Shown: positions 2,764 to 27,518, counted from the stretch's first letter. The stretch is DNA of 35,491 bases from a virus (IMGVR_UViG_2671180778_000014:1-35491); one strand, 5' to 3'. Translations and numbers: made by a program. The notes: a model not told the origin generated them from the letters alone.

Positions 2764-3762
2764 TTAGAGTGTCTCTAATGGGCTTAAATCGAGTTCTAAG
2801 TCTTCCGGTATTAAATCAGCTAACGGTGCATTCATCCACTGCGATAAATCTCGTTCTATGTCTTCATCACTAATGTAGTTGTTCAGATTGATTGCGTTGG
2901 TATCATCAAAATACATTGGCTTAGATGGGTTGGTGTGGATGTATTCATTGATGAATGATTTAACATCTTTCAGCTTGCTAATCGGTAGCGTTTCTGTGAA
3001 TCCGCTATTCATTACCTTACGTGGGATTTTCTTGCCCTGAATATTCTTTTTAATCCCCATTTCTAAATCACCAGCTTTCCATCCAATGTTAAACAAATGT
3101 GAGCATTCAAAGGTGATTTTCTCGCTGGTGTGCTTCTGGTGTTCTCTTACCCGTTGCATCGGATCTTTGCGAGTGGTAATTCCATATTTGAAAAACTTCT
3201 CGCCAACACGAATTAGATAAAAGTGCATAGGGCGCTGTGCAAACTTGTTTCTGATAACCTGTTTTCTACCATTCTGAATTGATTTAAGTACCCCCCTAAC
3301 CAAAGGGCATGTTAACCCGCCTTGTCTGCGGTTATTGTGTAAATCACCTTTCTTGTGAATCTTTCCGTGGCACTTACAACGAAGAATTAGTTTAGTGTCA
3401 ACACCCTGATAAGGTTCAGCCAGACCTAACACATCCCACCCTATCGGCTTGTAGAACTTGCGAGCGTTTTCTAAGTGTTCTTCTTCGGTAAATCTAAACT
3501 TCTTCTTAGGCGGTGATACTCTATCTTTGCCAGTAAACTGACCAGTTAGAACATGACTAATACATGGCGTTTTAACCTTTCCGTTAACTTCTATGCAAAC
3601 TTTGGTGTTCTGGAATGGTTTCTTTACAGGAAGCACAAAACCACTGTATAACCATCCATGCACTTGACAAACTTTAATGATTCTGGTTTCATATTCGACC
3701 GGAGGGGTCGCACGTTTGCTTTTTGCGGTAAATTCGATATCCTTTGCTAAAGTAGTATTCAT
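2764..3762 (-). CDS. putative GIY-YIG-like endonuclease with N-terminal Cys-rich region
   Basis: 332-aa ORF; central HFYLIRVGEKFFKYGITTRKDPMQRVREH resembles the GIY...YIG...R...H arrangement; N-terminal CxxH/CxxC clusters; family call tentative. Confidence 0.4.
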   Translation of the reverse strand: MNTTLAKDIEFTAKSKRATPPVEYETRIIKVCQVHGWLYSGFVLPVKKPFQNTKVCIEVNGKVKTPCISHVLTGQFTGKDRVSPPKKKFRFTEEEHLENARKFYKPIGWDVLGLAEPYQGVDTKLILRCKCHGKIHKKGDLHNNRRQGGLTCPLVRGVLKSIQNGRKQVIRNKFAQRPMHFYLIRVGEKFFKYGITTRKDPMQRVREHQKHTSEKITFECSHLFNIGWKAGDLEMGIKKNIQGKKIPRKVMNSGFTETLPISKLKDVKSFINEYIHTNPSKPMYFDDTNAINLNNYISDEDIERDLSQWMNAPLADLIPEDLELDLSPLETL

Positions 3763-3797
3763 AGTAGTGAATCCTCAATAAAATAATATTCACTACT
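3763..3797. promoter_or_regulatory. perfect 10-bp inverted repeat in the 5' leader of the endonuclease gene
   Basis: AGTAGTGAAT ... ATTCACTACT separated by 15 nt, directly upstream of the start at 3762. Confidence 0.3.
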
Positions 3798-3804
3798 ATT
3801 TATA
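3798..3804 (-). promoter_or_regulatory. candidate -10 element (TATAAAT) of a recurring promoter motif
   Basis: minus-strand CTTATAAATA upstream of the gene at 3762; the same motif recurs at 29978 and 30966. Confidence 0.3.
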
Positions 3805-3808
3805 AGAA

Positions 3809-4165
3809 TTAATTATTGTAGTTTTGGAAACCAGTAAGATCGCAAAATGTTTCTGTGTCATGTACCGGAGAACGATGTTCTGCCTCGTCAGAGAAAATGT
3901 TGGCTACCGGAGATTCTGCGTTAACTTCCGGTACTTCTTCAACTACTGGCTGAACTTCTTCAATGACTGGTTCCACTACCGGAGTTTCTTCTACTGGTTC
4001 CGGTTCTTTCATTGCTTCAACCAGTGACGGATCTGCCTCATCAAATACCACTTTATCTTCTGCGGTATATTTGTCTATAATGAAAAAATGGTCAGAAATA
4101 TAGCTAACGTCGCCAGCATATTCTAACAAAAAAGCGCCCACCAGAGGCGCTTTTGTTTTATCCAT
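3809..4165 (-). CDS. hypothetical Pro/Glu-rich protein (uncertain start)
   Basis: ORF with EPEPVEETPVVEPVIEEVQPVVEEVPEV low-complexity segment; 5' end overlaps a terminator hairpin, so the true start and reality are uncertain. Confidence 0.3.
   Translation of the reverse strand: MDKTKAPLVGAFLLEYAGDVSYISDHFFIIDKYTAEDKVVFDEADPSLVEAMKEPEPVEETPVVEPVIEEVQPVVEEVPEVNAESPVANIFSDEAEHRSPVHDTETFCDLTGFQNYNN
4130..4157 (-). terminator. rho-independent terminator after the endolysin gene
   Basis: minus-strand AGCGCC-tctggtg-GGCGCT followed by TTTTTTGTT. Confidence 0.5.
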
Positions 4166-4511
4166 TCCACCGTGATTTTTTTGATCTGGAATCAATATGC
4201 GTAAAGGTTTTATATTTTCCTAAGCCGTATTGAGTAGGATATTTCCCATCAAGATAAGCATGAACAATATCAGGCGAGACACCCTTGATAACAATGTCAG
4301 CCGCGCGGCCTCGAACATGATAGCTATTGGTTGCGCCGCCTACATTCTTGTTATGAGTCGGGCAACGGTTCCCACTGTTAATAATCACTGGTTTACCGAA
4401 GTGCTCTCGTACATCCTCAAGAATCACCAGTAATTCAGCGTCGATTGTATCATAATCACATTTTCCGCATTTACATTTAAATTCCTTGCGAGAAAAATGC
4501 TTACTTAACAT
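4158..4511 (-). CDS. endolysin, zinc peptidase M15-like (YcbK/DUF882-type)
   Basis: FSRKEFKCKCGKC ... NSGNRCPTHNKNVGGATNSYHVRGRAADI ... THID matches the His/Asp zinc-binding pattern of M15-type cell-wall peptidases; RBS AAGGGGG. Confidence 0.65.
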   Translation of the reverse strand: MLSKHFSRKEFKCKCGKCDYDTIDAELLVILEDVREHFGKPVIINSGNRCPTHNKNVGGATNSYHVRGRAADIVIKGVSPDIVHAYLDGKYPTQYGLGKYKTFTHIDSRSKKSRWNG

Positions 4512-4520
4512 ATTACCCCC

Positions 4521-4868
4521 TTAGATCATTTCGAAGATATAACCAATAAAGCGCATACCCTTGATATAATAAGGAGCAGTGCCTACACACACCGCGCGTG
4601 CATCACCCAGACAGTTAAAGCTATAAGGATTAACTACATCGACTTCTTGCCCTACACGAAAACGATATTTAGGACGTTTAGCCAATGTAGCGACACAAAA
4701 CACGGTCCCCTTTTCATGGTCACGGATACATTCTTTATATTGTTTATGTTTAACTCTCTTCGCCTCAAAATCATAGGTCATTGATTCTGGGCTAATGCCA
4801 TTAATAAAAATACCGGAAAGCTGATCAACCGGATAAGTAGGAAATTCAGTGAAAATATTTTTAGCCAT
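4521..4868 (-). CDS. hypothetical protein
   Basis: 115-codon ORF with GGGGG RBS; no recognisable motif. Confidence 0.5.
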   Translation of the reverse strand: MAKNIFTEFPTYPVDQLSGIFINGISPESMTYDFEAKRVKHKQYKECIRDHEKGTVFCVATLAKRPKYRFRVGQEVDVVNPYSFNCLGDARAVCVGTAPYYIKGMRFIGYIFEMI

Positions 4869-4906
4869 GTTATACCCCCATAAGATTCTATGAGGGTATT
4901 TATTGA

Positions 4907-5590
4907 TTAAACGTATTTCATGCGCGATTTAATGTGCTTATTGATGTTTTCAAGCATCATTGCTTCGTTGCTTTCCCACGATCCTAGCGTCGAATAACGA
5001 GTAGAAATTTTATCCGACTTAACGGCAACAATTCGCTTACTCTGTTTCTGTATGCGTTTCTCTAAGCGACGTTTTGCCACCGCAGATCCATTCCTAGCGC
5101 GTTTGGTTCGGGATTTCTTAGGCTTGTACTTCTTCATGATAAAAGTCCCTTCCTGGTTCTCTACCTTGATGAAGTTGCCATTTTCGATGTTACGCATCAT
5201 CTTACCGCCTTTGATGGCCTTAATGTTCCCGTGGGAGTCTAAGACCTTACCGTTGGCGATTGGCACTAGCTTATTGATTTTGCCACCATCGAAATAGTGT
5301 TTCAGATAGTCATCCTGACTGCCGATCCTCTTGTCCTTATCCCTTGCGCCCTTGATGAAGATTTGGTGTCTCGTCCCTGATCGGTTCTTGTAGTTGGTAT
5401 TACCTACAGCTTGCTGAGTCCATCGAGTAGGTCTATCAACATTCTTGTTAATCTTCTTCTGGAGTGCTCTGGAAGCAAAGATCGCCCCTTCCCCTAGTGC
5501 CCTTTCGAATGTATCGGTTGCCTTTTCAGACCATTGCCGTAACGCTTTCTTAGTCCTTAGAGCGTTTCGTTTATTGGTACTGGTTGCCAT
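4907..5590 (-). CDS. hypothetical basic protein
   Basis: 227-aa ORF rich in Lys/Arg; start ATG overlaps the stop of the upstream small gene (TAACATG). Confidence 0.5.
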   Translation of the reverse strand: MATSTNKRNALRTKKALRQWSEKATDTFERALGEGAIFASRALQKKINKNVDRPTRWTQQAVGNTNYKNRSGTRHQIFIKGARDKDKRIGSQDDYLKHYFDGGKINKLVPIANGKVLDSHGNIKAIKGGKMMRNIENGNFIKVENQEGTFIMKKYKPKKSRTKRARNGSAVAKRRLEKRIQKQSKRIVAVKSDKISTRYSTLGSWESNEAMMLENINKHIKSRMKYV

Positions 5591-19000: not shown

Positions 19001-19668
19001 TTGTCGGAAACAGTCTTTTCGATCGCTGTCTTGTTAGCTGCAACCGTGCTAGTTAAGCTAGAAATTTTGTTATCTGCATCGGTTTTATTTGCAGTAACAG
19101 TTTTAGTTAAGTTGCTAACGTTGGTGTTAGTGGTATTAACCTTGTTGTTAATCGCGGTGTTATTGTCAGTGACCGTTTTCGTTAAAGCTGCATGTTTGCT
19201 ATCTGCATCAGATTTGTTTGCGGCAACGGTTCTTTCAATTGCGGTCTTATTCGCAGATACGGTCCCCGTAAGGTTATTGATCTTAGTGTCGGCATCGGTT
19301 TTATTTTCCGTAACTGTCTGGGTTAAGTTACTAACAGTGGTGTTGGTAGCATCAATGCGCTTATTGGTTGCGGTGTCTTTAGTGGTAATAGTCTGATTCA
19401 GTTCAGCTTTAGCACTAGCCAGATTATTAGCGGCCTCTTGTTTGTTGGAAGCAATAACACGGTCAGTGCTAGTTTTATTCTGGTCTACTTTCGTGTTAAG
19501 TTCAGCGTGTTTTTCTGGAGAAACAGAGATTTGAACTACTGCGTTATTTTTATCTTTGGTATACAGAACGTGATCAGCAAGGTTAATAGCCAATTCACCC
19601 TGTGATAATTGTTCCGGCGTTGGTTTTTTACCAGCCGTTTGTGTGCGTTTAAATTGGATTGATCGCAT
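16045..19668 (-). CDS. L-shaped / side tail fibre with C-terminal intramolecular chaperone (peptidase S74-like) domain
   Basis: 1207 aa; N-terminal repetitive TxNKTDADxKIxxLTxTVxANKTAIE segments; C-terminal SDSRLKINKEEL ... GIIAQDLEEVLPEAV matches the auto-cleaving chaperone domain of endosialidases and T5-type L-shaped fibres; KPTPGEIGAYTKAEVD fibre repeat. Confidence 0.8.
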   Translation of the reverse strand: MRSIQFKRTQTAGKKPTPEQLSQGELAINLADHVLYTKDKNNAVVQISVSPEKHAELNTKVDQNKTSTDRVIASNKQEAANNLASAKAELNQTITTKDTATNKRIDATNTTVSNLTQTVTENKTDADTKINNLTGTVSANKTAIERTVAANKSDADSKHAALTKTVTDNNTAINNKVNTTNTNVSNLTKTVTANKTDADNKISSLTSTVAANKTAIEKTVSDNKKDADTKITNLTGTVNSNHTAINNKVDQNKSSTDAAIAAANKRIDGIEGSNDALYIKKNTNTKHGGYLLSKTANYLEDQTSRDLNYFGAFRTNGQDGLLDLTLNVPHSAGKAHGRGFTFRYASGGSRVETYGFDREGQKNFSYKMYHEGDKPTPGEIGAYTKAEVDKMFVKNVVMSVPNSSENVSAYFKLATATIPQNGRSVFFRIHGGNGYNVTAYDQVDVVEILLRSGNDRPKGLNVIAYRRNTNKDFEVFAVNTSGDNYDIYVKYQRYTDNVIVEYGKSVYVSLTVYDTPEATLIKPSVGVIGGRNVTLFNTENKRGVLSFDDNTQNSYDIVHLSNDRGTGRKYIRKFRSNYNEMIWHETVQGSTYRLATGSTDAQEILTVESSSSIAGTHKGNILSGRMLLNGGSNVITLRRPAGQSNHIAFQDNRTGNITRQGWFGYGNADTNVFEWYSDVGGTSIRHHIDGQIELATGNTKRVYTNAQFISMNSDAYRMIYGKYGAFWRNDGVKVYLLSTAEDDKLGGWNGNRPFIYDMNTGKVTLGGDGNEGALILERDSRAARFSNNVFLEKGLLTFSAGGNQSMDSFTINHWGNSNANRYNVLQFQDTSGTHFTTERNGSGGLLAHFRGDLTAEGKITWGKNTSASSFNIRAWGAGPGNEGRQQVFECADESGWHWYTQRAGGPGTELIEFAVNGTLRPKAIHAGGNITLNGADIEFKRTGNKHIWFRDPNGLELGLMYSDDAGVIRFRGQKQAQTWKLADKMIHLESGSVGGSDKGLIRGNVSGGSWSSWRDRASGLQVDCPQSKDSAHNIWKATHWGQYHIAAMGVHVPSGTIGNALVRLHVHDTNFDFNAAGDFTAGRNGSFNDVYIRSDSRLKINKEELQDGALEKVNSLKVYTYDKVKSLSDDTVIKREVGIIAQDLEEVLPEAVGIQSTEDPENPEAIKTISNSAVNALIIKAIQEMDAKYQAKIEALTKEIAELKATK

Positions 19669-21314: not shown

Positions 21315-21341
21315 AAAAAAGCCCCACCGTTAGGCAGGGCT
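21315..21341 (-). terminator. rho-independent terminator (conserved family)
   Basis: minus-strand AGCCCTGCC-taac-GGTGGGGCT followed by TTTTTTG; near-identical to the 15362 copy. Confidence 0.6.
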
Positions 21342-21475: not shown

Positions 21476-23479
21476 TCATTCAGCGGAGATGTGAAGAACT
21501 TTCAGCGCTTCCGGCTGGGTTACAACGTAATCCAGATCTACCCAGATACGCGGAACGATAGCAGACTGTGCGCGGTAGGTAGTGTCATCAATGTCAAGTT
21601 CCAGACCACCCCATTCACCGATGGTAATAGCGTCGAACGATCCCAGAACGATGTGGTCTACCGGAATAACACCAGAAGTAACTACGTCGTAACCAGCCAG
21701 TTTACCGTTTTCGATGATATAACCGGAAACACCGTTATCTTTCAGGGTAGATTCCAGTTCAGCAGCAGTTGCACCGCTCATTGCAAACTTGATCGCCTGA
21801 GCAGGAACGCCAGCGTCGGTCAGTTTAGCAATTTCTTTCAGGAAGTCTTTATAAGAGAAAGCAGCTTTCTTCTCTACGCGACCAGCATCTACCAGTTGTT
21901 TAATCACACCAGCCGGACCACGAGCATTTTCTTTGTCGGACAGAATCAGTTGTTCCAGTTTGATGCGAACAGCCTGGTTAATGTGATCAGTGATCAGGGT
22001 AGCGATGCCGGGTACGGTTTTGAGGCTAGCTCTGCTGATCGGATTCCCACCAGCAAACGTCTTAGGAGCCATTTTCACGTTTGCAAATTCAGCTTTACCT
22101 TCCGGCGCAGCACCGTTTTCATCAACGAAGCCGAAAGATTCAACGCTGGAAGCGGTCATTTTAGGAATAGCGGTCGGCGAAGTCAGACCAGACAGGACTT
22201 TCACACCAAGACGACCCAGAACGGATTCCGGCAACAGCATCGCTACATAGGAATCATTCAGCAGTTTTTCGTCGGTTACAGCGGTCAGAGTAGCTTTGGT
22301 GTTACCATCAGCAGCAGCACGCATAGCAGCAGTCGGAACGAATACAGAGCCACCGCGAGCAGCACGACCACGCTGCATAGTTGCAGTAGCAGCCATTGCA
22401 GAAAACTCGGCTTCGTGAGCACCCAGAGCTTCACCATCTACCAGAGAGCGAATTACGTTGTTCAGGTCAAAAGTTTTTTCCATTTTAGAGTCCTTAATTT
22501 GTTGTTCGTTATTACGTTGAGCATTGGTAATGTTATTTAGTGCCTTAGTGCGGAATGCTTCCGGCGTCATGTCTTTAACTGCCAATGCGCGTTTTAATTC
22601 TTCGTCGTCAATATTTAGTTCCCGCGCGATCTCGCGAATTTCTAATTCGTCTTCTTCGGAACGTTCAGCCACTTCTTCGATTTTTTCTTCTTCAATCGGA
22701 GCGGCTTCACGTTCTTCTTTTACTTCTTCTGTTTCCCGAACAGTTGAACTATCATCATCAACACTTTCAGGATGTTCAGCGTCTTTTCCGTCTTCGAGAT
22801 TTTCATTTTCTTCATTCTCTTCAACTTGGCGCTCTTGAGTTTCTTCTACTTCCGATTCTTTATTTTCTTCTACCGGAGTTTCTTCAACCTGAGCGGCTTC
22901 TTGTTCTTTGATTTCTTCGATTTGTTCTTTAGTCATATCGCGTTTAGCCTCCAAATTAACTGTGATAGTATTTAGAGAGCGATTTAAACCGACCGTATCG
23001 TCAGCAGGAACGGTAACGAAACTTAATTCGTATGGTGCCCACTTAGTAACAATCAATTGTCCTTTGGTGTAGTCGATGTGATATTCTTTAATGTCATAAC
23101 CGACAGAAATTTTTTCCATCGTACCTTCAATGACTTTATTGCGAATATCATTAGCCAAAGTGCCATGCTTAGAGAATTTAACCAGAGCACGACCTACGTT
23201 ATCCGCATCGATTCGAGCGTTACAAACGACACCAATATGATTATCGAAATTATGATTGAACAGCAACGGAGCGTTATTATTCAGACGAGACAGATCAACC
23301 GCTTCCGGTGTATGTACCAGAATTTCATCTAGTACCACCATCTCTTGATTTTGCTCATCCCAGAATTGGCGCTGATACGGCTGTTCACTGGAGAAAGCAA
23401 TTTCAAATTCGTATTGATCGTTATGCCCTTCGTTAATAACTCCACCGTAACCGTTAAGATCGCGGCGAAATTTAAGCAT
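21476..23479 (-). CDS. prohead protease - scaffold - major capsid protein fusion (HK97-fold)
   Basis: N-terminal PLLFNHNFDNHIGVV is prohead protease-like; central highly acidic coiled-coil region (scaffold/delta-like); C-terminal ~300 aa resemble an HK97-fold capsid protein; candidate internal RBS plus ATG at 22483. Confidence 0.8.
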   Translation of the reverse strand: MLKFRRDLNGYGGVINEGHNDQYEFEIAFSSEQPYQRQFWDEQNQEMVVLDEILVHTPEAVDLSRLNNNAPLLFNHNFDNHIGVVCNARIDADNVGRALVKFSKHGTLANDIRNKVIEGTMEKISVGYDIKEYHIDYTKGQLIVTKWAPYELSFVTVPADDTVGLNRSLNTITVNLEAKRDMTKEQIEEIKEQEAAQVEETPVEENKESEVEETQERQVEENEENENLEDGKDAEHPESVDDDSSTVRETEEVKEEREAAPIEEEKIEEVAERSEEDELEIREIARELNIDDEELKRALAVKDMTPEAFRTKALNNITNAQRNNEQQIKDSKMEKTFDLNNVIRSLVDGEALGAHEAEFSAMAATATMQRGRAARGGSVFVPTAAMRAAADGNTKATLTAVTDEKLLNDSYVAMLLPESVLGRLGVKVLSGLTSPTAIPKMTASSVESFGFVDENGAAPEGKAEFANVKMAPKTFAGGNPISRASLKTVPGIATLITDHINQAVRIKLEQLILSDKENARGPAGVIKQLVDAGRVEKKAAFSYKDFLKEIAKLTDAGVPAQAIKFAMSGATAAELESTLKDNGVSGYIIENGKLAGYDVVTSGVIPVDHIVLGSFDAITIGEWGGLELDIDDTTYRAQSAIVPRIWVDLDYVVTQPEALKVLHISAE

Positions 23480-23524
23480 TTAATCACCTTTAATTAATTG
23501 GGGGCATTGCGCCCCCGTTGGTTA

Positions 23525-25036
23525 TTAGGGATCGGCTGGGGAATTTTTTTCTTCACCCTCGCCATTAACGATAATATTTAGTGCGCTCTTTTCGGCTTGA
23601 ATCTCTGAGAATACTTTTTCAGGATCATCACCACGTTCAAGAATAACGGCAGTACGTGATTTAAGTCCGTTATCAATTAAAGCAATATCAGCGTTCACAT
23701 CTTTAATAACATCGACGGACTCAAAACGTGGCCTGATAATAGTAGTGTTATCGATAATATGTGGAATTGCAGTAATACGAATCGGAACAATACCACGCGC
23801 GGAATAATGGCGTAGATACGCTTCGAAAATTGGCAATACCACTGTTTCAATCAATTTGTTTTGTAGTGCTTTAACGCGGTTACGTTGAAGTAGTTCACCG
23901 AAGCGGGCTGCGCTGTAATTTATTTGGCTAGTATCACCAGTCAAGCCCTGTTTAAACACGCCAAGACCCATCGAGACACTCGTGAACATTCCATCATTGA
24001 ACGAATTGAAGTCGTCGCCACTTTGCGATGATTGAATGCTCTTGATCGTTGCCCCTTCCGGCAATTCCTGAATAGTACCAGGCGCGAAATCGTGAATTAC
24101 TTCCGGCGCTTGATATTGTTCATCCTCTTCACCAGTATCAAAATCGTCACCAGAATCTTTAGGACGCTCGATGAACGCCATGCTACTAGCTGAAATTCGT
24201 TTCTGGATCAGGACCGCTTCGCGGAATGCGTCTTGATGTGCGATATCCTTAATCACTGGCAGGAAGTCAGTCACGCCACGCAGAGATTCAGCCGCAAGTG
24301 GTTGATAATAATGGCATACTTGCGAAGCATCTACGCGATAGTTATCACCTGTGTAAGTCTGAGTCAGTAGGTTGATTTTACGAAACCAAAATGCAACAGG
24401 GCGCATTGTTTCTACGTCATACTCAATACCCTGATAGATAGCACGTTCTTTGCTTACTTCACGGTTGAGCGTCCAGTCGCACTTATCAGCAGACAGGATG
24501 GAAACATTTAACTCATTGTTTTCTTTGGTTAAAACGATGAAGCACTCACCACCCATAACGCGCTCACGTTCAGCCATCACCAGCAGTTCACGGAAGTTAA
24601 AACGACCATTGCGGGAGAAGCGTTTAGCATTCTGCGCCCACTTCCAGAAAGCATTCTCGATCTGCTTATTCAGTGCGGTATCAAGTTTGCCATTTGATTT
24701 AACGATTGATGGCTTCGGATCTAGGCCAGTGCCGACCACCATATCGGTGATGTATTGCGTGTAGCGACTGCCTACGGAAGTGTTTAAGGCCAGAGTACGA
24801 CCCTGATCATAAAGGCGCTTACCATTCGATTTGAGAGCCTTATTGAAGGTTCCTGTAATGGTATCTTGTTGAAGCGATCCATCAATGCGATCACCAACCA
24901 GTCCTAAACTACGAGTCGCCAGAGATTTCTGGTATTTTTCTATAGATTTGTCGATAAAGATTTTTTGTTGTTGCTGGCGGTGATTAGTTTTAACTGGAGT
25001 TTCTACCGCCTTATTGCGTCGAAAAAGATTAAACAT
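23525..25036 (-). CDS. portal protein
   Basis: 503 aa located between the large terminase and the capsid gene; size and synteny match lambda-type portals; RBS AAGGGGT. Confidence 0.75.
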   Translation of the reverse strand: MFNLFRRNKAVETPVKTNHRQQQQKIFIDKSIEKYQKSLATRSLGLVGDRIDGSLQQDTITGTFNKALKSNGKRLYDQGRTLALNTSVGSRYTQYITDMVVGTGLDPKPSIVKSNGKLDTALNKQIENAFWKWAQNAKRFSRNGRFNFRELLVMAERERVMGGECFIVLTKENNELNVSILSADKCDWTLNREVSKERAIYQGIEYDVETMRPVAFWFRKINLLTQTYTGDNYRVDASQVCHYYQPLAAESLRGVTDFLPVIKDIAHQDAFREAVLIQKRISASSMAFIERPKDSGDDFDTGEEDEQYQAPEVIHDFAPGTIQELPEGATIKSIQSSQSGDDFNSFNDGMFTSVSMGLGVFKQGLTGDTSQINYSAARFGELLQRNRVKALQNKLIETVVLPIFEAYLRHYSARGIVPIRITAIPHIIDNTTIIRPRFESVDVIKDVNADIALIDNGLKSRTAVILERGDDPEKVFSEIQAEKSALNIIVNGEGEEKNSPADP

Positions 25037-25613: not shown

Positions 25614-27518
25614 TTAGAACGATGTTACCCAGCTACGGCCTCTATTTGGGCGTCTGGCGATGTTTTTACGTTGTGGTCGTGTGATTGGCTTATTTTCTTC
25701 GATTTGCTCGTCAGATTGCGTTTCAGGAGCTTTTACGGGTTCTTCTGGTTCACGGTTCAAACTATCTTTGATGGCTTCGAGTTTTTCCCATGACATTTTA
25801 TTGAGTACATGGCGAGAAGCAGCATAGGAATAAGCCAGGCAGTCGAGAGCCTCGTTTCGTTGCTGACCAACTTTTACCCAACGTGTGGTATTACCCTGCC
25901 GTTTCAACTGTTCAGAAAGCAATTGCTCGCAATAGTCATCAGGAACGTCACCAATCTGGAAGACAGTGTGAGGATCTCCATCTCTCAAGTTCCGGTTAAT
26001 CATTTCGCGGATCATCGTCTTAAGGTTGTTTACGCCCAGAATTTTAAGGGTAAAACCACCTGTTCTTGTGTCTTTTACCGGAAGGATTGGAGCATCAACA
26101 TTGCTTGCGCCCTTAATGGCTGATAGGTTTTGCCACCGACTACAAAAGCGGTAGATCACTTGCGTAGCACGTCCGTTTGATGAGTCCACGAAAGCGGATA
26201 GCATCGGGATTCGTTGACCGGATCGGGTATAGAATTTAGCTTTCAGGAAGTTGTAAAGCTGGTCATATGCTGGTGATTCGTGGCGTTCGCAGTTCACATC
26301 ATAGAATGATCGGTGATCAACTACGCATATCCCTTTACGCGAGATACCCAGCAAGGTAGATTCCAGACGGTCTTTTTGCTGGTCAACTCCACCTACCAGA
26401 GCCAGAACATCATCAGGGATATTGTCTAAGCTAATATCAGTTTTCAGCGTTTCCAGTTCGTCGGCTGTGCGGTCTTCGTTAAGATCATCGAAGGTTTCAC
26501 CTAAGACAGTGTTATAGAACGTTGCCAGTGACATATTCGCGTAGCTATCAGCAAAATCCACCACACACGCACGGATAGAACTAAACGGAGACATAAGGCG
26601 GTTAGCATGAAAACCGATTACTTCCGCATTAGGTTCGGTGGCGATCCATTCTCCCTTAGCAACAGCACGTAGGCGATCCCCTTCGGTCCAGTCGGTTTCA
26701 CATTCAGGGCAACGATAAACGGCTGTGTCGGGCGAAGGCAGTGATTTACCATTAACTTGATGCCAATCAAAATGGACGTTACTCCATTCCATTACGTGTC
26801 TGTGTCCGCAATGCTGGCATGGAACATAGTATTTTCGTTTATCTGATAGCTCGAATTGTTGGTTGATCGCCCCATCTCGCGACGTTGGAGTAGAAGCAAT
26901 TACGATCCGTGCATCTTCCCCGAAAGTGGTTGCTCGTTGTTCCGCTAGCTGGATCGGGTTCCCTTCATCTGATTCATCAGCCGCATCAACTTCATCAAGA
27001 ATAATCAAAGGCAGTGTCTTACCGCGCAAGTGTGATGGACTGTTCAGCGACATGAAATACATGAATGATCCGTTACGAAGCTGAATAATCGATGAGTTGT
27101 TAACAGCATTACGGTCTGATTTGTCGGTGATCATCGCTTTTAATTCTGGCGTAGCCTCTAATACTGGCTTCACCTTACCAGCGATCCAAGAATTTAGTTC
27201 TCTAACGTTTGATTGCAACACCCCTATATTCGTAGGGTTACTGGCGATCCTGTGGAAGATAATTCCGTTAAGAATCATAGTCTTACCCAACTGCGCCGAA
27301 CATTTAAACACAATTTTTCTACGGTCTTCGGTGATCGCGTCCATCATTCCACGTTGGAAGGGATGCAATTTAATTAGAGATCCGGCTTTAACGCCATCGG
27401 TAGCCACTACGTTAGCCTCTACCCATTCGCTAGGTTTCATGGCTTTAGGCGGTCGAATTGCAGCAGAGATATTTTTAAGAATCTTTTTTAATTTAGCCTT
27501 ATTAGAAATCAGTTTCAT
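25614..27518 (-). CDS. terminase large subunit (lambda gpA family)
   Basis: 634 aa; N-terminal PSEWVEANVV ... LHPFQRGMMDA and C-terminal RNEALDCLAYSYAA match the recalled lambda gpA pattern (AVEWADANYY ... LPFQRAIMNA ... RRNEALDCFVYALAA); Walker A-like QLGKT. Confidence 0.85.
   Translation of the reverse strand: MKLISNKAKLKKILKNISAAIRPPKAMKPSEWVEANVVATDGVKAGSLIKLHPFQRGMMDAITEDRRKIVFKCSAQLGKTMILNGIIFHRIASNPTNIGVLQSNVRELNSWIAGKVKPVLEATPELKAMITDKSDRNAVNNSSIIQLRNGSFMYFMSLNSPSHLRGKTLPLIILDEVDAADESDEGNPIQLAEQRATTFGEDARIVIASTPTSRDGAINQQFELSDKRKYYVPCQHCGHRHVMEWSNVHFDWHQVNGKSLPSPDTAVYRCPECETDWTEGDRLRAVAKGEWIATEPNAEVIGFHANRLMSPFSSIRACVVDFADSYANMSLATFYNTVLGETFDDLNEDRTADELETLKTDISLDNIPDDVLALVGGVDQQKDRLESTLLGISRKGICVVDHRSFYDVNCERHESPAYDQLYNFLKAKFYTRSGQRIPMLSAFVDSSNGRATQVIYRFCSRWQNLSAIKGASNVDAPILPVKDTRTGGFTLKILGVNNLKTMIREMINRNLRDGDPHTVFQIGDVPDDYCEQLLSEQLKRQGNTTRWVKVGQQRNEALDCLAYSYAASRHVLNKMSWEKLEAIKDSLNREPEEPVKAPETQSDEQIEENKPITRPQRKNIARRPNRGRSWVTSF

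What the first reader, a model, noticed from the sequence alone, without database searches (positions are those of the whole stretch)
21476..23479. Prohead protease, scaffold and major capsid protein encoded as one ORF with a candidate internal start
The N-terminal ~170 aa look like an HK97-type prohead protease, the middle is a highly acidic coiled-coil scaffold-like region, and the C-terminal ~300 aa an HK97-fold capsid protein. An internal AAGGA-N7-ATG at 22483 (minus strand, MEKTFDLNNV...) could produce a separate 335-aa capsid protein, analogous to the nested lambda C/Nu3 arrangement.
Basis: partly seen in the sequence, partly recalled or inferred. Interest (0 to 1): 0.55.

Follow-up and report, generated by a model that had tools for sequence, protein, structure and literature searches.

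The report
Nested starts in fused protease–capsid gene
One phage gene encodes the capsid-maturation protease, a scaffold-like linker and the major capsid protein as a single chain, and conserved internal ribosome-binding sites suggest it also makes two shorter protease-free versions, which would explain how such 'three-in-one' genes set the ratio of enzyme to shell protein.

Summary
ORF 21476-23479(-) encodes a 667-aa protein, and AAGGA-N7-ATG precedes Met333 at 22483.

The fusion itself is a large, already annotated family. What appears unreported is nested translation inside it.

- The Met333 start with its AAGGA is kept in at least 12 lineages below 70% identity.
- The upstream Lys is always AAG where the ATG exists. 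It is AAA in the one clade where the ATG became Leu.
- Two further lineages rebuild the Shine-Dalgarno (SD) motif from different amino acids.
This one is family-wide: 87% of junction ATGs have a strong SD against 15-19% of controls (p about 1e-28). It matches the gene junction of unfused HK97-type phages.

By homology with R4C, all products would be trimmed to a mature capsid protein of about 270 aa.

All evidence for initiation is comparative; there is none from experiment. I rate this a new variant of the lambda C/Nu3-type nested scheme.

The parts
21476..23479 (-). Fused prohead protease / linker-scaffold / major capsid protein ORF. It encodes 667 aa (73.5 kDa); the stop codon is at 21476-21478.
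   Evidence: PHROG 617 matches full length at 5e-89, and phrog_4523 is named 'major head and protease protein'.
23483..23491 (-). Shine-Dalgarno of the annotated start: AAAGGTGAT, 3 nt before ATG 23477-23479.
   Evidence: Duplex with the 13-nt anti-SD is -10.8 kcal/mol.
22979..23419 (-). Protease domain, residues 21-167. H76 (23252-23254), S125 (23105-23107) and E151 (23027-23029) are invariant.
22948..22952 (-). GGAGG, the Shine-Dalgarno for internal start 1. It is the only GGAGG in the ORF, made by codons TTG-GAG-GCT.
   Evidence: Invariant in 31/31 unique clade members.
22934..22936 (-). Internal start 1: ATG of Met182, 14 residues after the protease domain ends. It would give a 486-aa (52.8 kDa) protease-free linker + capsid precursor.
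   Evidence: Equivalent SD+ATG sites sit 13-15 residues after the protease domain in R4C and VP882. The site corresponds to the gene junction in unfused relatives.
22667..22978 (-). Acidic linker, residues 168-271 (pI 4.05), predicted disordered.
   Evidence: Length and sequence are highly variable in the family.
22493..22666 (-). Conserved three-helix module, residues 272-329. This is the candidate scaffolding / delta-domain-like part.
   Evidence: AF2 helices 275-287, 292-300 and 306-329 at pLDDT 76-87. Conserved R..EI..IA...AI..G.S...FK pattern.
22491..22495 (-). AAGGA, the Shine-Dalgarno for internal start 2, made by codons AAG-GAC (Lys329-Asp330).
22481..22483 (-). It would give a 335-aa (35.3 kDa) precursor.
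22283..22480 (-). Small conserved pro-module, residues 334-399, beginning with the family motif [Y/F]-[S/D]-L-x-x-[A/V]-I-R-[S/A]. It is predicted to be removed on maturation.
   Evidence: AF2 pLDDT 66-87 with a dip at 400-403. The N-terminus of the R4C chain as deposited aligns to about residue 398.
21479..22270 (-). HK97-fold capsid body, residues 404-667.
21320..21341 (-). Intrinsic-terminator-like hairpin plus T-run, 135 nt after the stop codon.

Best explanation
The ORF is one real gene of a temperate E. coli phage. It encodes, from N to C terminus, an HK97/T4-type (S78, assemblin-fold) prohead protease, a disordered acidic linker, a helical scaffold-like module, a small pro-module and an HK97-fold major capsid protein.

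I propose that it is translated from three in-frame starts that share one stop codon:
- Met1 gives the 73.5-kDa protease-bearing chain.
- Met182 (GGAGG-N11-ATG) gives a 52.8-kDa linker/scaffold + capsid chain, the equivalent of HK97 gp5 with its delta domain.
- Met333 (AAGGA-N7-ATG) gives a 35.3-kDa short precursor.

All three carry the same capsid domain, so they would co-assemble into one procapsid. The protease would be brought inside because it is covalently attached to a minority of shell subunits, and the amount of internal scaffold mass would be set by the relative strength of the three starts. After assembly the protease would remove everything N-terminal to about residue 398-403, leaving a mature capsid protein of about 270 aa (28.6 kDa).

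Shown here: the domain identities and folds; the sequence signals; their conservation and co-variation.
Inferred: that the signals are used for initiation; the co-assembly and stoichiometry logic; the position of the maturation cut.
For: Domains:
- S78 and Phage_capsid Pfam hits and a full-length PHROG 617 match.
- The AF2 model resolves protease, disorder, helices, hinge, pro-module and HK97 fold.
- H76, S125 and E151 are invariant in 28 sequences of 24-45% identity.
- There is no separate protease or scaffold gene between portal and capsid.

Met333 start:
- ATG and AAGGA are invariant in 31 unique clade members and in 37 members of a 32-39% identity clade.
- They are present in 72 of 73 further unique genes at about 30-33% identity, although flanking residues and spacing (7, 10 or 13 nt) differ.
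- The only clade with Leu/Ile at this position (15 unique, CTN/TTA/ATC) writes the same Lys as AAA, so it has no SD: duplex -1.6 against -5.9 and -6.5.
- At 70% clustering, at least 12 lineages are AAG+ATG and 3 are AAA+non-ATG.
- In the window clade, AAG is used for 33 of 385 Lys-[Asp/Glu] dipeptides, and 31 of those are this site.
- Two more lineages keep an SD built from other residues: P0122 has AAAGGA from Lys-Gly, and P0124 has AAAGGTGAT-N3-ATG from Lys-Gly-Asp (-9.9), the same motif as the window's annotated start.

Met182 start:
- SD+ATG lies 13-15 residues after the protease domain in the window, R4C and VP882.
- ATGs in that region have a strong SD in 87% (VP882/R4C-like, 72 genes) and 55% (window-like, 127 genes) of cases.
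- This compares with 15% and 8% of other ATGs in the same genes, and 19% and 12% of non-ATG codons in the same region (p from 3e-22 to 4e-28).
- In unfused relatives the protease gene ends, and a delta-domain + capsid gene starts, at exactly this point.

Both sites:
- Both lie in the least structured mRNA of the gene (-3.3 and -3.1 against a mean of -12.7 kcal/mol, 98th percentile).
- 119 of 127 window-like genes keep at least one site, and clades that lost one site kept the other.

Maturation: PDB 8GTA is exactly residues 362-629 of R4C's 629-aa fused gp6.
Against: - There is no experimental evidence (ribosome profiling, N-termini or product sizes) for this phage or any fused relative in the literature I could search.
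- Within-clade synonymous diversity is too low to show local constraint (quantiles 0.14-0.18).
- The GGAGG-to-ATG spacing at Met182 is 11 nt, longer than optimal.
- In the large VP882/R4C-like subfamily, a Met at the position homologous to 333 carries no SD enrichment. So the residue is also a protein-level Leu/Met site, and the 333-type start is restricted to one subfamily.
- A few genes (L097, P0125/L313) show no convincing internal site.
- Lineages are phylogenetically related, so the number of truly independent events is smaller than the sequence counts suggest.
- HK97 needs its delta domain for assembly, so it is unclear whether a 335-aa product lacking most of the scaffold-like region could assemble.
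Confidence: 0.72

Rival explanations
1. There is a single polyprotein only. The gene makes one 667-aa chain, every shell subunit initially carries protease and linker, and the internal SD-like motifs and Mets are by-products of protein-level constraints.
For: Position 333 is a conserved Leu/Met site in a protein motif across the whole family. In the VP882/R4C-like subfamily, Met there has no SD. Annotators call one CDS. By my own rough estimate (not a tool result), 415 full-length N-terminal extensions would fit inside a T=7 procapsid.
Against: Protein constraint cannot explain the third-position choice AAG vs AAA co-varying with the ATG. It also cannot explain an SD rebuilt from Lys-Gly or Lys-Gly-Asp codons. 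It cannot explain SD enrichment upstream of ATGs but not of other codons in a disordered, sequence-variable linker.
Confidence: 0.15
2. The internal signals are fossils of the gene fusion. They are the old start sites of formerly separate genes, no longer used and not yet decayed.
For: Unfused relatives have a gene junction exactly at the Met182-type position.
Against: The junction signal persists in lineages that share only 22-30% protein identity, where unselected nucleotides would be randomised. The Met333-type site has no counterpart at any gene junction. It appears to have arisen inside the fused gene at the base of one subfamily and was then kept.
Confidence: 0.06
3. The SD-like motifs act as translational pause sites at domain boundaries, or as frameshift stimulators, and not as initiation sites.
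For: Both motifs lie just before predicted domain boundaries.
Against: A pause site does not need an in-frame ATG 7-13 nt downstream, yet motif and ATG are lost together. There is no canonical slippery heptamer after either motif (read directly). No long alternative-frame ORF continues from these points on the minus strand. From my own knowledge, the SD-pausing model itself is disputed.
Confidence: 0.04
4. The fusion is a sequencing or assembly artefact, or a pseudogene formed by loss of a stop codon.
For: None found.
Against: The identical architecture occurs in hundreds of independent genomes and in isolated, plaque-forming phages including R4C, VP882, phiHAP-1 and RcCronus. 379 cluster representatives match at E of 1e-30 or better.
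Confidence: 0.01

Closest known systems
Fused prohead protease-major capsid protein genes (PHROG 617 / 4523; Pfam architecture PF04586+PF05065), for example Dinoroseobacter phage R4C gp6, Vibrio phage VP882 gp07, Halomonas phage phiHAP-1, Rhodobacter RcCronus, and Xanthomonas FoX/Murka 'major capsid protein and protease'
   Same: Same domain order and same families. The match is full length. The mature capsid protein is only the C-terminal ~270 aa, as in R4C (PDB 8GTA).
   Different: None in architecture; the window gene is a member. In the literature I could search, these genes are described only as fusions (PMC8601537, PMC6536676) and not as nested translation units.
Lambda C/Nu3, HSV-1 UL26/UL26.5, HFTV1 gp17/gp17.5 (and, from my own knowledge, Mu I/Z): nested in-frame protease/scaffold genes
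   Same: An internal in-frame start just after the protease domain yields a protease-free product that shares its C-terminus with the full-length protease chain. The shared part targets the protease into the procapsid. The scheme and the HFTV1 ribosome-profiling evidence are in bioRxiv 10.64898/2026.09.13.751334.
   Different: Here the shared C-terminal part includes the capsid protein itself, not a separate scaffold that binds it. There are two nested internal starts rather than one. The proteases belong to different families (lambda C is S49-type; this one is S78). Use of the internal starts is inferred, not shown.
HK97 gp4 (protease) + gp5 (delta domain-capsid protein)
   Same: Same protease family and capsid fold, and no separate scaffolding protein. 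The Met182 product corresponds to gp5 with its N-terminal assembly domain. Unfused relatives of the window gene have exactly the gp4|gp5 layout.
   Different: The stop codon between the two genes is absent, so the protease is made as an N-terminal extension of a capsid subunit. From my own knowledge, HK97 gp4 is instead a free protein targeted by its C-terminal tail. The linker here is acidic and predicted disordered, not a coiled-coil delta domain.
Retroviral/Ty Gag and Gag-Pol
   Same: The logic is the same: an enzyme is packaged because a minority of structural subunits are made as enzyme fusions, and a translational signal sets the ratio.
   Different: There is no homology. In Gag-Pol the enzyme is C-terminal and the ratio is set by frameshifting or readthrough; here the enzyme is N-terminal and the ratio would be set by alternative initiation.

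Membership tests
Peptidase S78 (HK97-type prohead serine protease) | Profile match above the curated threshold | tested here: met
   PF04586 scores 41.8 bits against a cut-off of 21, E 1.6e-10, residues 40-162.
Peptidase S78 (HK97-type prohead serine protease) | Assemblin-like fold shared with T4 gp21 and the herpesvirus proteases | tested here: met
Peptidase S78 (HK97-type prohead serine protease) | Conserved catalytic His and Ser | tested here: met
   H76 and S125 (plus E151) are invariant in 28 and in 20 divergent sequences. Their equivalence to the HK97/T4 catalytic residues is inferred, not superposed.
Peptidase S78 (HK97-type prohead serine protease) | Proteolytic activity on the capsid precursor | not testable with these tools
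   Indirect only: the R4C capsid chain as deposited lacks the N-terminal 361 residues.
HK97-fold major capsid protein (PF05065 Phage_capsid) | Profile match and fold | tested here: met
HK97-fold major capsid protein (PF05065 Phage_capsid) | Position after the portal gene in a head-morphogenesis module | tested here: met
   The order is terminase 25614-27518, portal 23525-25036, then this gene.
Fused protease-MCP family (PHROG 617/4523) | Full-length similarity across both domains to other single-ORF fusions | tested here: met
   phrog_617 at 5.4e-89 covers residues 21-662. 144 of the 150 best 50%-cluster representatives are 540-720 aa long.
Nested in-frame protease/scaffold genes (lambda C/Nu3 type) | In-frame internal start with a ribosome-binding site downstream of the protease domain | tested here: met
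   GGAGG-N11-ATG at Met182 and AAGGA-N7-ATG at Met333, both conserved and co-varying.
Nested in-frame protease/scaffold genes (lambda C/Nu3 type) | Two or more co-terminal protein products demonstrated | not testable with these tools
   No proteomic or ribosome-profiling data were found for any fused member.
Nested in-frame protease/scaffold genes (lambda C/Nu3 type) | The shared C-terminal part is a scaffold separate from the capsid protein | tested here: not met
   The shared part here contains the HK97-fold capsid protein itself. This is why I file it as a variant and not a member.

The most novel reading that the evidence does not exclude
Fused protease-capsid genes, found in thousands of phages and prophages, are really nested multi-product genes. 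An ancestral internal start at the protease/linker junction makes protease-free capsid precursor in nearly the whole family. One subfamily evolved a second start de novo inside the pro-region, and in several lineages that second start has replaced the first. The phage would thereby set protease:scaffold:shell stoichiometry purely by competing initiation sites, and would encapsidate its protease by covalent tethering to a subset of shell subunits. This assembly strategy has not been described for tailed phages.
Probability: 0.55. Interest if true: 0.72.

Novelty: new variant of a known kind. Interest (0 to 1): 0.6.

Why it matters
Capsid assembly needs very unequal amounts of shell protein, scaffold and protease. 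How phages that fuse all three into one ORF achieve this has not been addressed.

Nested initiation would give a simple answer that can be tested. It would extend the lambda C/Nu3, herpesvirus UL26/UL26.5 and HFTV1 gp17/17.5 principle to a gene that contains the capsid protein itself. It would also mean that a large family of 'major capsid protein' annotations hides one or two unannotated products.

The gain, loss and replacement of the two starts across clades offers a natural experiment in how translational signals evolve inside coding sequence. In practice, the window phage lives in E. coli, so the prediction can be tested with standard tools.

Tried and rejected
1. Within-clade synonymous-site diversity around both starts was uninformative. 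The clade is too similar and mosaic, and many 8-codon windows have zero diversity.
2. I tested whether the 40% Met at the homologous motif position of the VP882/R4C-like subfamily marks an internal start. It does not: SD -1.98 (Met) vs -2.08 (Leu), p = 0.79. The 333-type start is therefore not family-wide.
3. P0139 (297 aa) looked like a natural split near residue 333. It is a truncation caused by an IS3-family insertion.
4. Composition artefact: the linker is rich in GAG/GGA-type codons. The control with non-ATG codons in the same region rejects this.
5. Internal promoter: no promoter-like site lies upstream of either start, and the count of such sites is below the shuffle expectation.
6. Frameshift or pause reading: there is no slippery heptamer and no continuing alternative frame.
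7. Searching genome contigs with the single protein found nothing. Alignments A1 and A2 were too diverse for the locus finder. A3, A4 and A5 worked.
8. Literature: seven full-text searches, plus reading of the R4C, RcCronus, XM1, 7-7-1, BPP-1, Paracoccus, CBASS and marine-proteomics papers, found the fusion mentioned but no data on N-termini, product sizes or internal initiation. Subscription-only literature, such as HK97 work by Duda and Hendrix, could not be searched.
9. A sequence search of PDB with a protease-domain profile found nothing. Only the fold comparison detected the protease relatives.

Full report
**What is there**

The minus-strand ORF 21476-23479 encodes 667 aa. It lies in a head module in the order terminase (25614-27518), a 164-aa ORF, portal (23525-25036) and then this gene. 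There is no separate protease or scaffold gene.

The window is a ~35-kb temperate phage. Related copies at 90-94% nucleotide identity sit in 55 of 5426 complete E. coli genomes, always on the chromosome. In strain ETEC4085 the prophage interrupts hicB and carries a serine recombinase. The exact protein is in NCBI, and more than 120 near-identical fused copies exist. The fusion is therefore not an assembly error.

**Domains**

Pfam places Peptidase_S78 at residues 40-162 (E 1.6e-10) and Phage_capsid at 409-663 (E 3e-22). PHROGs matches the whole length to families named 'major head protein' and 'major head and protease protein'.

An AlphaFold2 model built on a 28-sequence alignment (mean pLDDT 76.8) divides the chain as follows:

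| Residues | Prediction |
|---|---|
| 21-167 | Beta-rich domain |
| 168-271 | Disordered; acidic, pI 4.05 |
| 275-329 | Three helices |
| 321-333 | Low-confidence hinge |
| 334-399 | Small alpha/beta module |
| 400-403 | Confidence dip |
| 404-667 | High-confidence capsid body |

**The fusion is a known, large family**

tblastn finds the same single-ORF architecture in R4C, phiHAP-1, VP882, RcCronus, the Xanthomonas FoX phages, PPpW-3 and others. Some are annotated 'major capsid protein and protease'. An exhaustive profile search finds 379 cluster representatives at E of 1e-30 or better, nearly all 560-700 aa long. Papers note such fusions in passing (PMC8601537; PMC6536676).

R4C provides an experimental anchor. 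The 268-residue capsid chain in PDB 8GTA is exactly residues 362-629 of the 629-aa fused gp6. By alignment, the window protein would be cut near residue 398-403, which coincides with the AF2 confidence dip.

The sequence is AAGGA, 7 nt, then ATG at 22483. I collected 91 and then 73 further unique fused genes with their DNA from viral and genome collections. The findings were:

- **Retention.** ATG and AAGGA are invariant in the window clade (31 unique). They are also invariant in a clade at 32-39% identity (37 unique) and present in 72 of 73 genes from many sub-clades at about 30% identity. This holds although the residues between and around them differ (DKEIKM, VKDNKM, IKDDEM, IKDDINIM, NKDVNTM and others) and the spacing is 7, 10 or 13 nt.
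- **Co-variation.** The one clade that has Leu/Ile instead of Met (DCP80-like, 15 unique; CTN/TTA/ATC codons) keeps the Lys-Asp residues but writes the Lys as AAA, which gives no SD.
- **Independence.** At 70% clustering this gives at least 12 lineages with AAG+ATG and 3 with AAA+non-ATG. There is no verified mixed state.
- **Codon background.** AAG is strongly avoided elsewhere. In the window clade it is used for 33 of 385 Lys-[Asp/Glu] pairs, and 31 of those 33 are this site.
- **SD kept while amino acids change.** P0122 uses AAAGGA from Lys-Gly. P0124 uses AAAGGTGAT-N3-ATG from Lys-Gly-Asp, which is the same motif and spacing as the window gene's annotated start.

These patterns are what selection on a ribosome-binding site predicts. 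Selection on the protein alone does not predict them.

**A limit on that claim**

In the wider family, position 333 falls in a conserved protein motif ([I/L]-G-[L/M]-[S/T]...[Y/F]-S-L..A-I-R-A), where Leu (65) and Met (60) alternate. In the large VP882/R4C-like subfamily, Met copies have no stronger SD than Leu copies (p = 0.79). The 333-type start is therefore specific to the window-like subfamily.

GGAGG-N11-ATG lies 14 residues after the protease domain ends. It is the only GGAGG in the ORF, in a gene that uses GAA 70 times and GAG 8 times.

R4C (cGGAGGacgcaATG) and VP882 (aGAGGTGcagaaATG) have the same feature 15 and 13 residues after their protease domains. The table gives the share of codons that have a strong SD upstream (duplex of -5 kcal/mol or stronger):

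| Subfamily (unique genes) | Junction ATGs | Other ATGs, same genes | Non-ATG codons, same region | p |
|---|---|---|---|---|
| VP882/R4C-like (72) | 87% | 15% | 19% | 4e-28 |
| Window-like (127) | 55% | 8% | 12% | 9e-27 (vs other ATGs); 3e-22 (vs non-ATG codons) |

In unfused Firmicutes relatives, a ~210-aa protease gene ends at this point and a ~490-aa delta-domain + capsid gene begins. This site is therefore the ancestral capsid-gene start, retained after the stop codon between the two genes was lost.

**Pattern over the tree**

A rough NJ tree of 66 clusters gives the following picture:

- The junction start is present almost everywhere, which suggests it is ancestral.
- The 333-type start arose at the base of the window-like subfamily.
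- It was lost in the DCP80-like clade, which kept the junction start.
- Several sub-clades that carry the 333-type start have lost the junction start.
- The window clade keeps both.

Of 127 window-like genes, 67 have both sites, 42 have only the 333-type site, 10 have only the junction site and 8 scored as having neither. Four of those 8 are parsing misses.

In the window gene, both internal starts lie in the least structured mRNA of the gene (98th percentile). No promoter-like site precedes either start.

**Proposed mechanism (inferred)**

Three co-terminal products of 73.5, 52.8 and 35.3 kDa would share the capsid domain and co-assemble. The protease would enter the procapsid as an N-terminal extension of a minority of shell subunits. 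The scaffold-like mass would be supplied by the two longer forms. The protease would then trim all forms to a mature protein of about 28.6 kDa.

This logic resembles lambda C/Nu3, HSV-1 UL26/UL26.5 and HFTV1 gp17/17.5. The difference is that the shared C-terminal part is the capsid protein itself, and there are two nested starts rather than one.

**Verdict**

The fused gene is a member of a known family. Nested initiation within it is, as far as I could search, unreported. It remains unproven experimentally. I rate it a new variant of a known kind, with moderate-to-high interest and confidence of about 0.7 that at least the two internal starts are used.

Noticed in passing
window 16045-19668 (-), and 15515-15988 (-): The 1207-aa tail-fibre gene shares about 80% nucleotide identity (up to 89% in one record) over ~2.7 kb with the distal long-tail-fibre gene gp37 of RB49/Phi1-type (Krischvirus) T-even lytic phages. 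In the ETEC4085 copy the next gene is annotated 'receptor-recognizing protein'. A temperate phage and lytic T4-like phages seem to have exchanged a receptor-binding module.
   Followed up: partly
L001 (NZ_CP122634.1) 346-462 and 36119-36427; window ends: In E. coli ETEC4085 the prophage splits the antitoxin gene hicB of the hicAB toxin-antitoxin pair, leaving two hicB fragments flanking ~35.6 kb. It carries a large serine recombinase next to one end.
   Followed up: no
window 21320-21341 (-): A strong intrinsic-terminator-like hairpin (9 bp, 6 GC, then TTTTTG) lies 135 nt after the capsid gene stop and before the next head/tail genes. This suggests the capsid transcript largely ends here or is attenuated.
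   Followed up: no
window 23499-23517: A GC-rich hairpin (GGGGGCgcaatGCCCCC on the coding strand) lies between the portal stop codon and the capsid gene's ribosome-binding site. It has no T-run on the coding strand, so it could be an mRNA processing or stability element.
   Followed up: no
L002 (PQ671644.1, Escherichia phage DCP80) 1734-7789: The closest named phage relative of the fused gene (43% identity) is in a 141-kb record classified as Straboviridae/Tevenvirinae. Its left end carries a lambda-type terminase-portal-fused-capsid module with all products annotated as hypothetical. The record may be chimeric or mis-assembled.
   Followed up: no
L307 (AP028561.1) 3001-5064: A relative of the fused gene is truncated after 297 aa by an IS3-family insertion (HTH_Tnp_1 + rve genes directly downstream). 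The same truncated protein is seen on 11 contigs, so this defective prophage allele has spread.
   Followed up: partly
L232 (IMGVR_UViG_3300021982_000039), boundary codon: This is the only one of 73 P0137-like genes in which the boundary ATG is ATT (Ile) while AAGGA is retained. It is either a recent loss of the internal start or a sequencing error.
   Followed up: no
window about 21590 (-), residue 630 region: Many relatives have an in-frame ATG preceded by a G-rich SD-like stretch at the conserved W-G-G-L-E-L-D-[M/I] capsid motif (22 of 31 in the window clade; the window itself has Ile). This looks like a by-product of Trp-Gly-Gly codons. It is a reminder that SD+ATG alone is not evidence of a start.
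   Followed up: partly
window 21491-22540 (+): A 349-aa ORF lies antisense to the capsid gene (GTG start). It is listed mechanically and I found no evidence that it is a gene.
   Followed up: no
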